Part shown: piece after piece, positions 14,745 to 21,012 of the stretch
Layout: each line of letters starts with the position of its first letter
Position numbering within the stretch: the stretch's first letter is position 1
Assembly: GCF_009914755.1 (NCBI RefSeq)
Contig: NC_060926.1
Length of the DNA: 64,000 nucleotides
Strand: one strand, 5' to 3'
Source: the human T2T-CHM13v2.0 reference genome, Homo sapiens
Made by a program: the position numbers and the translations under genes
Notes under the pieces: model-generated
Told to the model about the DNA's origin: nothing
Databases searched by the model: none
What the model saw: only the letters and a program-made list of their open reading frames with translations

Positions 14745-15191
14745 ATGTTGCGTGTGTTTCTCTCCCTCGTAGGTGTGGTGTCAGCACAGCGGCAGGTCAC
14801 CGTTAAGGAAGGACCCTTGTACCGCACGGAGGGCTCCCACATCACTATCTGGTGCAATGTGAGTGGCTCCCAGGGACCTCCTGAGCAGAATTTCCAGTGG
14901 TCCATTTACCTGCCTTCGTCGCCAGAGCGAGAGGTGCAGATCGTCAGCACCATGGACCCTTCCTTCCCCTATGCCATCTACACCCAGCGCGTCCGCGGAG
15001 GGAAGATCTTCATAGAAAGAGTCCAGGGGAACCCAACCCTATTGAACATCACAGATCTTCAGGCCCGGGATGCCGGAGAATATGAATGCCACACACCCAG
15101 CACCGATAAGCAATACTTTGGGAGTTACAGTGCAAAGATGAACCTAGTGGGTAAGGAGAAGGTGTCTTCACGTTGCCAGCGTCTGGCCTGA
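14745..15191 (+). CDS. Candidate 148-aa ORF: signal-like leader + Ig-V + donor read-through (translation unproven)
   Basis: In-frame ATG at 14745 with A at -3; MLRVFLSLVGVVSA leader; TGA at 15189-15191. Confidence 0.2.
   Translation: MLRVFLSLVGVVSAQRQVTVKEGPLYRTEGSHITIWCNVSGSQGPPEQNFQWSIYLPSSPEREVQIVSTMDPSFPYAIYTQRVRGGKIFIERVQGNPTLLNITDLQARDAGEYECHTPSTDKQYFGSYSAKMNLVGKEKVSSRCQRLA
14773..15150 (+). pseudogene. IGSF3: Isolated duplicated IGSF3 exon encoding Ig-V domain 1 (378 bp, phase 1-1, open frame)
   Basis: Acceptor tttctctccctcgtag and donor g|gtaagg. Translation GVVSAQRQVTVKEGPLYRTEGSHITIWC...DAGEYECHTPSTDKQYFGSYSAKMNLV matches recalled IGSF3 with about 6 substitutions. No other IGSF3 exon found in the window. 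Confidence 0.93.
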
Positions 15192-15922
15192 CTCAGTTCT
15201 TTAGTAGTGTAATTTTGCTTTATGCCATGCATTTGACTTTAAAAAAAATCCCAAAACTCCCAACATATTTTAGGGGTCAACAGATAGCACAAGGAAACTA
15301 AATTTCTGTGTTCACTTCTAAATAATAGGTGGTTGAGGGTGAAACTTTAAAAAGATCTAATGCAGATGTTAAGAATTTCATAAGTTAACTAACCCTGTAA
15401 CTGGTGAAAAGGGATATGAAAATATAAGGCAAGGACGTTTGTGGCTGATGATCTGAATGACAAGGAAGATGAGACGTATGACATCAGTTGGAAGAGAGGA
15501 GAAACCTCTCGGAAGGATAGGCCTTTGGGTAGCTCTGAGACCCACGGGGCACTGCTGAAGCAGGAAGCACATGTGGCTGCGGGTCCTTGCTCAGACCTTG
15601 TACATTGAAGGTCCTTTGGCTCCATGCGTAAGGAACTATGAACTGGCTGTCTCCCTTGTTGCTCCTTAATGCTGAAGGGAACATGAGGAAGAGGGATGCA
15701 GGAGCTTCCAGTGTGGGCAGCACTGGTCACAGTGTTTGCCAGTGTCAAAGGGTTAACCGTATCAAGGCTGTTCTGTTTTTCTGCCTATCTTAATGTGCAG
15801 TTTTTATTATCACAACTAAGCAGTGGGTGTTGCTAGTTCTTTTATTAATACACATACTATCATTTGTTTATTTTTCCTTTCTCTAACTAGTCTGTGTCCC
15901 AGCAGGAGACCTTTTATTTTTC

Positions 15923-16111
15923 GTGTGTGTGTGTGTGTGTGTGTGTGTGTGTGTGTGTGTGTGATGGAGTTTCGCTCTTGTTGCCCAGGCTGGAGTGCAA
16001 TGGGGCTCACTGCAACCTCCACCTCCCGGGTTCAAGCAGTTCTCCTGCCTCAGCCTCCCGAGTAGCTGGGATTAGAGGCAGGCACTACCATGCCTGGCTA
16101 ATTTTGTATTT
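15923..16111 (-). mobile_element. Alu right arm with a (GT)20 tail, truncated at the linker
   Basis: (GT)n at 15923-15962, then gatggagtttcgctcttgttgccc...ctaattttgtattt followed abruptly by non-Alu sequence. Confidence 0.9.
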
Positions 16112-16585
16112 CAAGTAATTTCTTCTTCTCATGTCTCCAATTTTTAAAAATTGTCTCTAGTCCCTTTGAAAATACATATTTTATAGTGTCTATCTAGTGG
16201 TTCTAGATAGACATCTAATCCCATTCTTTGTTGTATCTGTTAATTTTGCTTATGGGATATTTCTTCTTATTTTAAGTTCAGATTCACTTGGCTTTACCTT
16301 TGAGACTTTATGCAGTCTGGGATCAGGAGTGTCTATTAGAGATTTTTTGAATTAGCATCTACTAAGTGTTCTAGGAATACTTCTATGCACGGACACTTTT
16401 ATGGTAGGTTTAGAACTTTGGGATCCCTAACCTGTGCACATAATGTAATTTGAGCCCTACACATTAGTTGGATGAGGCCAGTTTTACATATGAATTCTCA
16501 AAAAAGACTTTGCCACACAGAGACCAGCCAAGACAAACTGCCTTGTCTTCTCAATTTGTCAGTAGGATGACATTTTCTGGTCCGT

Positions 16586-16912
16586 GTTTTTTATTTTATT
16601 TTTTTGTTTTGTTTTGTTTTGTTTTCTTGAGATGGAGTTTTGCTCTTGTTACCCAGGCTGGAGTGAAGTGGTGCCATCTCAGCTCACTGCAATGTCCGCC
16701 TCCTGGGTTCAAGCAATTTTCCTACCTCAGGCTCCCAAGTAGCTGGGATTACAGGCATGCACTACCAGGCCAGGCTAATTGTCTGTATTTTTAATAGAGA
16801 CGGCATTTCACCGTGTTGGTCAGGCTCATCTTGAACTCCTGACCTCAGGTGATCCACCCGCCTTGGCCTCCCAAAGTGCTGGGATTACACGCGTGAGCCA
16901 CTATGCCCAGCC
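16586..16912 (-). mobile_element. Alu (S-like)
   Basis: Full antisense dimer. Confidence 0.92.
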
Positions 16913-17633
16913 TGGTCCATTATTGTAGTAAGAGTTTAGCCCTCCAAGGCTTCCAATTTTGCAGGATGACAATAATCAGAGGGGAAGAGGAAAGAAACTT
17001 TGTTCTAACTTTCTGCCTGGAGTGAGTCAAAATCCTCCTCTTCTACCCTGGCAAATTCTGTACAGCCAGAAAGGGGTCATAGCTAAAAAATTCATGTAAG
17101 CTGTTTTAAGAATATTAAAAGCATTATCAATTATGATTCATAGCAAATAAAGGTAGCCATTTAATTAGCAAATGGAAATTTACCATGTTATTGTCTGTCC
17201 TTTACAGAAACCTATGGATTCCTCAGTGAGTAGCACCTAGTTGCCAGAAACAAGATGTCTAGTAACTTATACCTACTCATCTTAATCTCCGTCTACCTCC
17301 TACACATAATCTAAGATACTTTATATTTATTCCCACAAAATCTAGGTTCATTTCTTCTCGCCATTACCTCCTATAATATATTTATGCCAAATATCAGTTG
17401 AATTATCCTTTCAATAAAAAGATTTAGCAGGTTCCTGTTAAAAGATTTGGCACCTTGACACTGTGATCTTCAATAAGGTTGTGTATTCTTATCACAGCCA
17501 ATCATCCTCTTATTTTGCATCCTGATGAAAAAGCTATTTTAACATATAAAATGAAGTAAATCTCATCATATTGCCATGATGTTTTTAACTATCATATATT
17601 ATAAGTTATCATTTTCAAGAGTTCACATATAGG

Positions 17634-17944
17634 TTTTTTTTTTATTTTTTTATTTTTTTATTGAGACTGATTCTCACTCTGTCACCCAGGCTGGAGTGCA
17701 GTGGCACAACCTTGGCTTACTGCAACCTCCACCTCCTGGGTTCAAGCAATTATCCTGACTCAGCCTCCCATGTAGCTGGGATTACAGGCACGCACCACCA
17801 CACCTGGCTAATTTTTGCATTTTTAGTAGAGACGGGATTTCACTGTGTTGGCCAGGCTGGTCTCAAACTCCTGACCTCATGTGATCCAGCCACCTCAGCC
17901 TCCCAAAGTGCTGGGATTAAGGCGTGAGCCACTGCACCTGGCCC
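17634..17944 (-). mobile_element. Alu (S-like)
   Basis: Full antisense dimer. Confidence 0.92.
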
Positions 17945-19405: not shown

Positions 19406-19445
19406 CTTTGATCCTGAACTAGTATTCTAGTGGATTGTACAATGA

Positions 19446-19975
19446 CCCTGAACTAGTGGATTGTACAATGAATAAATGAATGCATATAAATTATTGTAGA
19501 ATAAAATTTTGTTAAGTATATGATAACCATACAAATGCAAGACAATAAACAATGTGATATGAAAAGTCTCAGCCAGCCTACCATATTTGTGTTTGTTTTT
19601 GAACTGCATAGTGGGAGGAGGTGCTCCTTACAATTTTCACTTTGTAAACATTTATTCTTTGATTTTAACCATCACTGCTATAACCACCATCACTCGTGGA
19701 TTCACCAAAAATTAAGTAAAGAATTATCTTATTTGTTTTTATAAAACTTTGTAAAATGTATGTAGAGCTCACATTTATTTCATTGTTTAATACTAGAAGT
19801 GTTTTGGATCTTTATTTAGAAGTTTGGTGATGTTTTGTGACCAGAAATATGCTGTAGGAAATTGACTCTTGTTTATATCATTTATCCTATGCTAAAATTG
19901 GTTTTGTTATATACCATTTTACTCAAAGTTGCCATTTCCAATCACCTATCGACGATGTTAAGTGAGAACTTACTC
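19446..19975 (-). mobile_element. MER82 (Tigger family) DNA transposon, partial
   Basis: Ends cctatcgacgatgttaagtgagaacttact; internal agaagtttggtgatgttttgtgaccagaaatatgc. Confidence 0.78.
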
Positions 19976-20007
19976 TATTCAAATATATCTAAATATTCAG
20001 TACAGTG

Positions 20008-20278
20008 GGCCAGGCATGGTGGCCCATGCCCATAATCCCAGCACTTTGAGAGGCCAAGGCAGGAGGATCACCTGAGCCCAGGAGTTCAAAACCAGCCTGG
20101 GCAACATAGCAGACCTTGTCTTTACAAAATATTAAAAATTTTTCTGGGTCTCAGCTACTCAGGAGGCTAAGGCAAGAGGATCACTTGAGCTCAGGAGGTT
20201 AAGCCTACAGTGAGCCATGTTTGCATCACTGCACTCACCGTGGGCAACAGAATGAGACCCTGTCCCCAAAAATAAATA
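20008..20278 (+). mobile_element. Alu (J-like) with a small deletion
   Basis: Alu motifs. Confidence 0.88.
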
Positions 20279-20869
20279 TATATTCGGTACATTGTCAGTA
20301 GAGATAATCTCTACATCTTATCTCTGCTGTCCCTTCTGTATCCACAGTTTTCTTGCAGCACCTTCTAAGTATTTATTGAATCATTTTCCTCCTCTCCAAA
20401 CTTTCTCTTTTGCTCTAGCTTAGGCTATTTGTTTCCAACTTTTGCGTGGACTGTGGCAGAGCCTTCAATTTGGTCTCTGTCTCCAGTTTTGTCCCTAACT
20501 AATTCACCAAGACCCTCATATAAAAATCGCAAGACTCATTATGTTACTTCCTGCCTAAAACCTTCCCATGGTGCCTTACTTTGCCAAAGTGGGGGGAGAC
20601 CTTTCTATGATCTGTCCCACCAAGCTCATTCTCCTCCCTCCTTTCCTTGCCCTGTATGTTCCAGCAACGCTAAATTACTTGTTGAACCCCATTTAGGTGT
20701 ATTGTTTCTTATCGCCATTCCTTTATTCATGCTGCCTTCTCTACTTGCTTGTAACCTGCCCTTTACCAAAATAATGAGGGACATAGTGCATTAGAAAATA
20801 AAGTAAATATTTCTGTTTTCTTTCTCAGAAAAATGAACTGTCATGTATGTTTATTTTGTTTCTTTTAAG

Positions 20870-21012
20870 GGATGTAACTGGCTGGTTTTACAATTAGGAA
20901 TGTTCCATTCATCAGTGAACATGTCCATGTTCCTAACGCATGGTCTTCAATTTTAAGAAGCATTACCCTTAACATTATTCTAATACGAGCTGGGCTTGGA
21001 CTCGATCCACAG
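20870..21012 (+). pseudogene. SLC9B1: SLC9B1-like exon B (about exon 5), TAA at 20875
   Basis: taag|GM*LAGFTIRNVPFISEHVHVPNAWSSILRSITLNIILIRAGLGLDPQ|gtagat. Confidence 0.95.

What the first reader, a model, noticed from the sequence alone, without database searches (positions are those of the whole stretch)
14745..20877. Duplication junction creates an in-frame IGSF3 Ig-V :: SLC9B1 transmembrane chimera
Seen: the IGSF3 exon ends in phase 1 (gtg g|gtaagg, 15150). The next recognisable exon, 3 kb downstream, is the SLC9B1 exon starting in phase 1 (tttcag|ga gtt, 18194). Both splice sites are intact and both exons are stop-free. Splicing gives ...AKMNLV-G-VTLFVIWYMTWSILG...NLFGLLIIFYSAIIGGKILQLIRIPLVPPLPPLLGM*, ending at TAA 20875. 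From ATG 14745 this is 406+171+5=582 nt, or 194 aa: signal-like leader, one Ig-V domain with both Cys, two hydrophobic segments and a Pro-rich tail. Established: segmental-duplication mosaics do produce fusion transcripts. Inference: a possible new membrane-anchored Ig protein. Caveats: no promoter is proven, and the stop would trigger NMD if downstream exons are spliced on.
Basis: partly seen in the sequence, partly recalled or inferred. Interest (0 to 1): 0.8.

Follow-up and report, generated by a model that had tools for sequence, protein, structure and literature searches.

The report
IGSF3–SLC9B1 pseudogene mosaic with paper ORF
Two pieces of duplicated genes (one immunoglobulin-domain exon of IGSF3 and a decaying copy of the ion-exchanger gene SLC9B1) were glued together inside the human kappa antibody locus, and although they can be read in frame on paper, the evidence points to an ordinary dead-gene mosaic, not a new protein.

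Summary
ATG 14745, the IGSF3 exon (14773-15150), the SLC9B1 exon (18194-18364), their splice sites and the TAA at 20875 are as described. They splice on paper to a 194-aa ORF.

The interpretation as a new membrane-anchored Ig protein is not supported.
- The junction (16109-16112, inside an Alu) joins an 8.4-kb IGSF3 fragment to a 5'-truncated SLC9B1 copy. The IGSF3 fragment holds only exon 2 and lacks exon 1 and a promoter.
- The ATG is not new. It sits in IGSF3 intron 1, 28 nt before the acceptor, in all 8 genomic copies including the parent.
- There is no CpG island near it.
- The stop is a private TTA>TAA nonsense mutation, found in 2 of 10 copies.
- The same SLC9B1 copy has two more nonsense codons and a destroyed acceptor.
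- pN/pS is 0.58-0.69.
- Intact downstream splice sites predict NMD.
- RefSeq annotates no gene here.

The junction occurs only twice, as inverted 99.78%-identical copies in the IGK locus. The IGSF3 piece belongs to the published IGSF3-GGT duplicon family. RNA evidence could not be tested. Interest is low.

The parts
1..6719 (.). Duplicon shared at 99% with three pericentromeric chr1 loci (142.56, 143.41 and 143.75 Mb). It forms the upstream flank of the mosaic and contains the window's only clear CpG island (1001-1400).
   Evidence: only 14 of 54,286 first-look candidates were scored
2632..7787 (.). Stretch also shared at 95-96% with acrocentric short arms (chr13 twice, chr14, chr15, chr21, chr22) and contig C24.
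7780..16111 (+). IGSF3-derived duplicon: about 7 kb of intron 1, exon 2, and 0.96 kb of intron 2. It is 96.8% identical to chr1:116,625,557-116,633,901 (minus strand). Exon 1 and the promoter are absent.
14745..14772 (+). Intronic ATG plus the polypyrimidine tract of IGSF3 intron 1, read in frame as the first 9 codons of the proposed leader. The ATG is present in all 8 copies, including the parent.
14773..15150 (+). IGSF3 exon 2 copy (Ig V-set domain, both Cys kept). It starts and ends in phase 1, and its splice sites are identical to the parent's. It differs from the parent by 9 substitutions, 6 of them non-synonymous.
16109..16112 (.). Duplication junction. IGSF3 intron 2 is broken inside an Alu and joined to an SLC9B1 intron, with a 3-nt TTT overlap (16109-16111).
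16112..64000 (+). SLC9B1-derived duplicon (unprocessed pseudogene, 5'-truncated). It is about 94-96% identical to chr4:106,265,917 down to 106,219,327 (minus strand) and runs off the window end.
18194..18364 (+). SLC9B1 exon 'a' (my label), equivalent to NHA2 residues 94-147: two hydrophobic helices and the Pro-rich loop. It has 5 substitutions against the parent (3 non-synonymous, 2 synonymous).
20870..21012 (+). SLC9B1 exon 'b'. Codon 20875-20877 is TAA where the parent and 7 other pseudogene copies have TTA. This is the stop of the paper ORF.
22121..22248 (+). SLC9B1 exon 'c'. Both splice sites are intact, so a spliced transcript would carry an exon junction more than 50 nt after the stop.
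35359..35534 (+). SLC9B1 exon 'd'. Its acceptor AG is mutated to AA at 35357-35358 (the parent has AG).
56097..56203 (+). SLC9B1 exon 'e', open, splice sites intact.
57046..57195 (+). SLC9B1 exon 'f', open, splice sites intact.
62359..62467 (+). SLC9B1 exon 'g', open, splice sites intact.
63339..63475 (+). SLC9B1 exon 'h' with two nonsense codons: TGA at 63377 (parent CGA) and TAA at 63461 (parent AAA).

Best explanation
This is a non-functional mosaic of two unprocessed pseudogene fragments, made by segmental duplication.

An 8.4-kb internal piece of IGSF3 was broken inside an Alu of intron 2. This piece belongs to the IGSF3-GGT duplicon family that spread through 22q11, acrocentric short arms and 2p11. 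It was joined by non-homologous end joining (3-nt TTT overlap) to a 5'-truncated pericentromeric copy of SLC9B1 from 4q24.

Because IGSF3 exon 2 ends in phase 1 and the first retained SLC9B1 exon starts in phase 1, the native frames line up on paper.

The locus has no inherited promoter or first exon. The proposed ATG is an ancestral intronic triplet just before the acceptor. The SLC9B1 part is decaying, and a private nonsense codon ends the ORF after two more residues. Any spliced transcript should be an NMD substrate.

The mosaic was then copied, or kept homogeneous, as two inverted arms inside the IGK locus.

Shown here: structure, junction, copy distribution, lesions and substitution pattern. 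Inferred: end joining, absence of a promoter, NMD, no protein product.
For: - Duplicon map: window 7780-16117 matches IGSF3 at 96.8%, and 16109-63997 matches SLC9B1 at about 94-96%.
- Junction: inside an Alu on the IGSF3 side only, with a TTT overlap.
- Distribution: the junction is contiguous only in the window and in chr2:89.51 Mb (inverted). There, exons, splice flanks and junction are identical, with 15 mismatches and 24 gap positions in 17,759 aligned columns.
- Other IGSF3 copies: chr13, chr2:91.93 Mb and the chr1 parent run on into the IGSF3 Alu (the anchor was found in 5 of 8 loci). The three chr22 copies gave no anchor match. Their nearest SLC9B1 copies lie megabases away.
- Start codon: ATG 14745 and the donor are present in 8 of 8 copies. 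The ORF is open in 6 of 8.
- Single origin: six sites in the 501-nt stretch are shared by all 7 duplicates against the parent. The window is nearest to chr2:91.93 Mb.
- Promoter signs: no CpG island lies between 1400 and 14900. The stretch 14000-14772 has GC 0.43 and CpG o/e 0.22. None lies within 13 kb upstream of the parent's exon 2.
- Stop codon: TAA 20875 is in 2 of 10 copies and TTA is in the other 8.
- Further lesions: AG>AA at 35357-58, TGA at 63377 and TAA at 63461.
- Substitution pattern: pN/pS is 0.58 for IGSF3 exon 2 (6 non-synonymous, 3 synonymous) and 0.69 for SLC9B1 exons a-h (29 non-synonymous, 13 synonymous).
- Annotation: the hub's RefSeq table shows no gene model in the window.
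- Literature (passages seen in bioRxiv 10.64898/2025.12.22.696095): IGSF3 internal exons are fused to GGT. The IGSF3 part shows no purifying selection (dN/dS 0.96). Human long-arm copies are 'degraded', with no fusion transcripts.
Against: - All four splice sites needed for the paper ORF are intact and identical to the parents'.
- The Ig exon keeps both Cys and still passes the Pfam V-set cut-off.
- The leader is hydrophobic and ends in the native signal-peptide C-terminus.
- pN/pS below 1 with so few changes cannot exclude some constraint.
- Gorilla IGSF3-GGT fusions that begin with internal IGSF3 exons are transcribed. A start site may therefore exist in or near the intron-1-derived DNA, about 7 kb of which is present here.
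- AATAAA at 21576 or ATTAAA at 21895 could allow NMD escape.
- No RNA, CAGE or proteomic data could be consulted. Absence of a RefSeq model in a near-identical duplicated region is weak evidence, because multi-mapping reads are usually discarded (my knowledge).
Confidence: 0.85

Rival explanations
1. The locus is a young chimeric gene. A transcript starting in the IGSF3 intron-1-derived DNA is translated from ATG 14745 into a 194-aa protein with a signal peptide, one Ig-V domain and two SLC9B1 helices as a membrane anchor.
For: - The ORF and all its splice sites are intact.
- V-set hit above the Pfam cut-off.
- Hydrophobic leader and two hydrophobic segments.
- A at position -3 of the ATG.
- Two identical copies exist.
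- Precedent: gorilla IGSF3-GGT fusions that begin with internal IGSF3 exons are expressed (passages).
Against: - The ATG is ancestral and intronic.
- No promoter signature.
- Three Ser>Pro changes and loss of one N-glycosylation sequon in the Ig exon.
- The stop is a private nonsense mutation in a copy with three more lesions.
- Predicted NMD, because exon c's splice sites are intact.
- The two helices are a torn-off part of a 14-helix transporter core (the helix count is recalled).
- No gene model is annotated (hub table).
Confidence: 0.04
2. The mosaic is transcribed but non-coding. Read-through or cryptic transcripts (for example within the highly active IGK locus in B cells, or from the upstream CpG-rich 1001-1400) splice IGSF3 exon 2 to SLC9B1 exons. 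They form an lncRNA or NMD substrate with no protein role.
For: - Intact splice sites on one strand across exons 2, a, b and c.
- A CpG-rich stretch on the same strand 13 kb upstream.
- Similar primate chimeric RNAs born in duplications were reported as non-coding (PMC2621205; search listing and start of abstract only).
Against: - No RefSeq model in the window (hub table).
- The CpG-rich stretch is a frameshifted NKAIN-like pseudogene fragment. Its CpG content may simply reflect GC-rich coding sequence.
- No expression data were available.
Confidence: 0.1
3. The junction is an assembly artefact of a hard-to-assemble duplicated region.
For: [quoted passage not shown] It is made of high-identity duplicons.
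Against: - The same junction occurs twice, in inverted copies that still differ at 15 mismatches and 6 gap openings over 17.7 kb.
- The breakpoint has a clean 3-nt overlap.
- The copy carries private substitutions on both sides of the junction.
Confidence: 0.01

Closest known systems
IGSF3-GGT fusion duplicon family (LCR22 on 22q11, acrocentric short arms; Babcock et al. 2003 as cited, and bioRxiv 10.64898/2025.12.22.696095)
   Same: - It is the same IGSF3-derived duplicon. All 7 non-parental copies of the exon-2 stretch share six differences from the chr1 parent.
- The other copies lie on chr22 (19.0, 19.17 and 21.64 Mb), chr13 short arm and chr2:91.93 Mb. These are the places where the paper puts IGSF3-GGT copies (passages).
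- In both cases IGSF3 exon 1 is missing and internal exons lead the fusion.
   Different: - Here the IGSF3 piece is cut after exon 2 inside an Alu and is followed by SLC9B1, not by further IGSF3 exons and GGT.
- The partner is a pseudogene with nonsense mutations, whereas gorilla GGT parts are intact and expressed.
- The paper's text does not mention SLC9B1 (0 occurrences). Its supplements were not seen.
SLC9B1 (4q24) pericentromeric unprocessed pseudogenes (the SLC9B1P series)
   Same: - Intron-containing, 5'-truncated copies of the same 4q24 segment occur on chr2, chr10, chr16 (twice), chr22 (twice) and C24 at 95-98% identity.
- PMC12940165 names SLC9B1P4 as an unprocessed pseudogene at chr22:6.27-6.32 Mb in CHM13 (passages). 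That matches one of the hits.
   Different: - Only the window and its twin have IGSF3 upstream.
- Only they have the TAA at 20875.
- Which HGNC name, if any, applies to the window copy was not determined.
Mosaic or chimeric transcripts at junctions of juxtaposed duplicons (for example chromosome 22 mosaic transcripts, PMCHL1/2)
   Same: Exons of unrelated genes are brought onto one strand by duplication, with usable splice sites and a fused paper ORF.
   Different: - Those cases rest on cDNA evidence, and none could be examined here.
- PMCHL RNAs were reported as non-protein-coding (PMC2621205, listing only).
- The chromosome 22 example is recalled from memory, not from a call.
NHA2 / SLC9B2 Na+/H+ antiporter (solved structures 7b4l, 7p1i)
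   Same: Exon 'a' aligns to residues 94-147 of 537 (E 3.5e-18).
   Different: The paper product would hold only this about 56-residue piece. The rest of the transporter is cut off by the stop, so no antiporter function is conceivable.

Membership tests
Immunoglobulin V-set domain (Pfam PF07686) | Profile match above the curated cut-off | tested here: met
   E 2.3e-8, 34.6 bits against a cut-off of 26, residues 28-127 of the 135-aa exon translation.
Immunoglobulin V-set domain (Pfam PF07686) | Two conserved Cys of the intradomain disulphide | tested here: met
   Both Cys are retained, and the translation is otherwise colinear with the parent's.
SLC9B / NHA Na+/H+ antiporter | Complete transporter core (Pfam Na_H_Exchanger domain) | tested here: not met
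   - Exon 'a' alone gives no Pfam hit.
- Exon 'd' gives E 0.0029, 17 bits, below the cut-off of 26.2.
- The copy lacks the 5' exons and has 3 nonsense codons and a lost acceptor.
Unprocessed pseudogene made by segmental duplication | Intron-containing copy colinear with a parent gene elsewhere | tested here: met
   Colinear blastn matches to chr1 (8.4 kb, 96.8%) and chr4 (about 48 kb, 94-96%), introns included.
Unprocessed pseudogene made by segmental duplication | Truncation and/or disabling mutations | tested here: met
   - IGSF3 piece: only exon 2 is present.
- SLC9B1 piece: 5'-truncated, with TAA at 20875, AG>AA at 35357-58, TGA at 63377 and TAA at 63461.
Chimeric (fusion) gene born at a duplication junction | Exons of both parents on one strand, with compatible phases and intact splice sites | tested here: met
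Chimeric (fusion) gene born at a duplication junction | A promoter and a start codon that survives splicing | tested here: inconclusive
   - No CpG island near the ATG.
- The IGSF3 promoter is not in the duplicon.
- The ATG is intronic, 28 nt before the acceptor.
- Non-CpG promoters cannot be excluded by sequence alone.
Chimeric (fusion) gene born at a duplication junction | Junction-spanning transcripts | not testable with these tools
   No RNA-seq, CAGE or EST resource was available. RefSeq lists no model in the window (hub table).
Chimeric (fusion) gene born at a duplication junction | Selective constraint on the fused ORF | tested here: inconclusive
   - pN/pS is 0.58 (9 changes) and 0.69 (42 changes) against the parents. 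The numbers are too small to separate from neutrality.
- A private nonsense codon truncates the SLC9B1 part.

The most novel reading that the evidence does not exclude
The two IGK-arm copies are transcribed from a cryptic start site in the IGSF3 intron-1-derived DNA. Such a site must exist somewhere for the expressed gorilla IGSF3-GGT fusions, which begin with internal IGSF3 exons.

The transcripts would escape NMD by early polyadenylation (AATAAA at 21576). They would give a human-lineage secreted or membrane-tethered single Ig-V protein of 194 aa, or 149 aa if the intron after 15150 is retained. It might be made in B cells, where the surrounding kappa locus is open.
Probability: 0.04. Interest if true: 0.6.

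Novelty: new member of a known kind. Interest (0 to 1): 0.15.

Why it matters
If the paper ORF were expressed, it would be a very young de novo chimeric gene in a region only resolved by the T2T assembly. It would also be a second, independent fusion built on the IGSF3 exon-2 duplicon, after IGSF3-GGT.

As it stands, the locus matters mainly as an annotation note. The gap-filled centre of the IGK locus contains an unannotated IGSF3/SLC9B1 pseudogene mosaic in two inverted copies. These copies can attract mis-mapped IGSF3 or SLC9B1 reads. They also give paralogue-specific markers (14805, 15045, 20876 and the 16109-16112 junction) for dating the IGK inverted duplication.

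Tried and rejected
- **Shared duplicon boundaries.** I first read as showing that all IGSF3 copies end, and all SLC9B1 copies begin, at the same breakpoint. That was an artefact of the query changing identity at that point. One search showed the other IGSF3 copies run on into the Alu, so I dropped the idea.
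- **20-kb whole-genome query.** Only 1 of 122,847 candidates was scored, so it told little. I replaced it with fetched parent loci and local blastn.
- **Exon finding against SLC9B2.** tblastn of ORFs was swamped by Alu and L1 matches. The collinear chain was contaminated by L1 hits and missed exon d. I fixed the exons by hand, then checked them by reading a-h in one frame.
- **Bacterial promoter/terminator scan over 14000-14800.** It found 2 sigma-70-like sites against 1.1 expected. The model does not apply to human DNA, so I ignored it.
- **CpG island 1001-1400 as an inherited promoter.** It is an NKAIN-like pseudogene fragment with a frameshift and a stop. No promoter claim is made.
- **Papers not held.** Babcock 2003 (by DOI) and Horvath 2005 (PMC1172035) were not read.
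- **Not attempted.** I did not fold the paper protein or run signal-peptide or TM predictors on it. The joined sequence is not a contiguous window sequence, and a fold would not bear on expression.

Full report
**1.

- ATG at 14745, an AG acceptor before 14773, and donor GTG|gtaagg after 15150.
- Acceptor tttcag before 18194 and donor |gtaagt after 18364.
- Acceptor ttttaag before 20870, and TAA at 20875-20877.
- The three pieces give 406+171+5 nt, or 194 codons, with no internal stop.

An in-frame TAA at 14736 closes the frame just upstream. If the intron after 15150 is retained, the frame runs to 15191, giving a 149-aa product.

The first 135 residues hit Pfam V-set above the curated cut-off (E 2.3e-8). 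The 56 residues of the second exon align to residues 94-147 of the solved NHA2/SLC9B2 antiporter (7b4l_A, E 3.5e-18). They give no Pfam hit on their own.

Hydropathy shows an N-terminal hydrophobic stretch and two later ones, at about 134-152 and 154-182.

**2. What the DNA is.**

The window's own assembly could be searched.
- The 501-nt stretch around the Ig exon has 8 near-full copies. These are the window, an inverted copy at chr2:89.52 Mb, chr2:91.93 Mb, chr13:13.60 Mb, three on chr22 (19.01, 19.17 and 21.64 Mb), and chr1:116.63 Mb. A ninth match at chr1:117.02 Mb is weak (74%).
- The SLC9B1 exon has 9 copies at 96% or more. These are the window, the twin, chr22 twice, chr16 twice, chr10, contig C24 and chr4:106.26 Mb. 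There is also a 74% match at chr4:106.37 Mb. From position and from the alignment, I take that last match to be SLC9B2.

Local blastn against fetched parent loci gave the duplicon map.
- Window 7780-16117 matches chr1:116,625,557-116,633,901 (minus strand) at 96.8%.
- Window 16109-63997 matches chr4:106,265,917 down to 106,219,327 (minus strand) at about 94-96%.

Upstream of the IGSF3 piece there are two further duplicons (where only 14 of 54,286 first-look candidates were scored).
- Window 1-6719 is 99% identical to three chr1 loci at 142.6-143.7 Mb.
- Window 2632-7787 is 95-96% identical to acrocentric short arms and C24.

The window is therefore a typical pericentromeric-type mosaic. By the hub's coordinates it lies inside the IGK locus. 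By PMC11327106 (passages) it lies in what GRCh38 left as the intervening gap between the proximal and distal V clusters.

**3. The junction.**

Aligning the window with both parents puts the switch at 16109-16112. The IGSF3 side is broken inside an Alu of intron 2. The chr4 side is unique intronic DNA. Three bases (TTT) are shared. I infer end joining with microhomology rather than Alu-Alu recombination.

The junction is contiguous only in the window and in the inverted copy at chr2:89.51 Mb.
- In the twin, the three exons with 30-nt flanks and the junction are letter-identical.
- Over 17,759 aligned columns the twin differs at 15 mismatches and 24 gap positions, or 99.78% identity.

At the other IGSF3 copies:
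- The anchor upstream of the junction was found in 5 of 8 loci.
- Of those five, chr13, chr2:91.93 Mb and the chr1 parent continue through the Alu.
- The three chr22 loci gave no anchor match. Their matches also stop at the junction, and the nearest SLC9B1 copies are megabases away.

The two junction-bearing copies lie 0.31 and 0.40 Mb either side of the midpoint of the IGK span given by the hub. I therefore read them as arms of the known IGK inverted duplication (inference).

**4. The IGSF3 piece.**

It holds about 7 kb of intron 1, exon 2 and 0.96 kb of intron 2. It has no exon 1 and no promoter.
- No CpG island lies within the 13 kb upstream of exon 2 in the parent.
- None lies in window 1400-14900. 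The stretch 14000-14772 has GC 0.43 and CpG o/e 0.22.

The alignment of all 8 copies shows several things.
- ATG 14745 is not a new feature. It and the donor are present in 8 of 8 copies, including the parent, where it sits in the polypyrimidine tract 28 nt before the acceptor.
- The ATG-to-donor frame is open in 6 of 8 copies. Two chr22 copies carry a 1-nt insertion.
- All 7 duplicates share six differences from the parent, so they have one origin.
- The window is closest to chr2:91.93 Mb.

Against the parent, exon 2 has 9 substitutions.
- Six are non-synonymous: Gln>Lys, Tyr>Ser, three Ser>Pro, and His>Asn.
- Three are synonymous.
- pN/pS is 0.58.
- One Ser>Pro removes an N-x-S/T sequon, and His>Asn creates another.

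Literature places this duplicon. The preprint 10.64898/2025.12.22.696095 (passages) describes an IGSF3-GGT fusion.
- It was first reported on 22q11 by Babcock et al. 2003 (reference list; the paper itself is not held).
- It begins with six internal IGSF3 exons.
- It dates to 8.6-11.6 Ma.
- It is amplified and expressed in gorilla, and pseudogenised on human chr13.
- The IGSF3 part shows no purifying selection (dN/dS 0.96).
- Long-arm copies are described as degraded and without fusion transcripts.

PMC4247602 (passage) lists IGSF3 among the LCR22 modules.

**5. The SLC9B1 piece.**

Eight exons (my labels a-h) lie in the window and read in one frame without frameshift. The 5' exons, which encode roughly the first 90 residues by the NHA2 numbering, are outside the duplicon.

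Lesions against the chr4 parent:
- TTA>TAA at 20875, the stop of the paper ORF.
- Acceptor AG>AA at 35357-35358 before exon d.
- CGA>TGA at 63377.
- AAA>TAA at 63461.

Over 1,121 nt there are 29 non-synonymous and 13 synonymous changes, giving pN/pS 0.69.

The TAA at 20875 is private. Among the 10 genomic copies of exon b, only the window and its twin have it. The parent and the 7 other pseudogene copies have TTA. The nonsense change therefore arose after the junction-bearing copy split from its relatives. That is decay, not design.

**6. How it most likely works.**

It most likely does not work as a gene.
- A transcript that enters at the native acceptor 14773 loses the ATG.
- A transcript that keeps the ATG must start in promoter-less intronic DNA.
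- The stop lies 135 nt before the exon b donor, and exon c's splice sites are intact. By the established 50-55-nt rule, a spliced RNA should undergo NMD.
- Escape would need early polyadenylation, for example at AATAAA 21576 or ATTAAA 21895.
- The two helices are the first of a many-helix antiporter core, and the 'Pro-rich tail' is the conserved loop before the next helix.
- The in-frame fit needs only that both exons have phase 1, a chance of about 1 in 3 (inference).
- RefSeq lists no model in the window (hub table). This is weak evidence in a 99.8% duplicated region.

Points against my reading are listed in full in the Against line. In brief: the splice sites are intact, the V-set hit is preserved, the leader is plausible, pN/pS is below 1, and transcription starts somewhere upstream of exon 2 in gorilla fusions.

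**7. What is known, and novelty.**

Two searches bear on whether the junction is in print.
- 'IGSF3' with 'SLC9B1' found 2 papers whose titles concern tumour genomics. Neither was read.
- 'SLC9B1P' found 12 papers. I read passages of one, which names SLC9B1P4 at chr22:6.27-6.32 Mb.

I found no description of this junction. Both duplicon families are known, and so is the kind of object, a fused paper ORF at a duplicon junction. I therefore file it as a new member of a known kind, of low interest.

The bold reading is kept at about 4%: a young human Ig-V protein from a cryptic intron-1 start site.

**8. Limits.**
- No RNA, CAGE, methylation, proteomic, population or other-primate data could be consulted.
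- GRCh38 could not be checked.
They do not come from an annotation of those loci seen here.

Noticed in passing
window 1001-1400 (coding-like part about 1044-1270, + strand): This is the only clear CpG island of the window (GC 0.63, o/e 0.73). It overlaps an NKAIN-like (Na,K-ATPase-interacting protein, PF05640) N-terminal fragment, E 7.4e-7, profile positions 3-31. The homology seems to continue in another frame after a 1-nt shift and a TGA, so it is a pseudogene fragment. It lies in the duplicon shared at 99% with three chr1 loci (142.6-143.7 Mb). Whether it is a retrocopy or keeps a promoter was not settled.
   Followed up: partly
window 35357-35358: The splice acceptor of SLC9B1 exon d is AA where the chr4 parent has AG. 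The nearest downstream AG (ctag| at 35369) would remove 11 nt and shift the frame.
   Followed up: yes
window 58212-59556: About 1.35 kb has no counterpart in the chr4 parent. The flanking alignments overlap by about 17 nt of parent sequence, which looks like a target-site duplication. The inserted DNA is GC-rich and tandemly repetitive, with long open frames on the + strand (58780-59576). It is probably a retroelement insertion after the duplication. The SVA-like look is my recollection only.
   Followed up: no
window 23736-24305: A simple repeat is open in all six frames (ORFs of 151-180 aa made of Y/V/H/T/C/I runs). It coincides with the break in the alignment to the chr4 parent (23856-24250), so the repeat length differs between copy and parent.
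   Followed up: no
window 39426-41951 and 42115-44635; ORFs 40824-41810(-), 43365-44069(-), 45400-46113(-): There are two about 2.5-kb stretches that cross-match the parent at 90%, and long minus-strand ORFs that look like LINE-1 ORF2 (my reading of the translations, not tested). They are shared with the chr4 parent, so they are older than the duplication.
   Followed up: no
G000:C2:92107011-92115213 (outside the window): The SLC9B1 pseudogene copy at chr2:92.1 Mb was not among the hits for exon a. It does match the flanks (window 16109-17727 and 18802 onward) and exon b. It therefore appears to have lost exon a by deletion.
   Followed up: no
L004 and L007 (chr22:19.17 and 19.01 Mb), position equivalent to window 15126: Two of the three chr22 IGSF3 exon-2 copies share a 1-nt insertion that frameshifts the exon, with a stop at codon 128 of the ATG frame.
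   Followed up: yes
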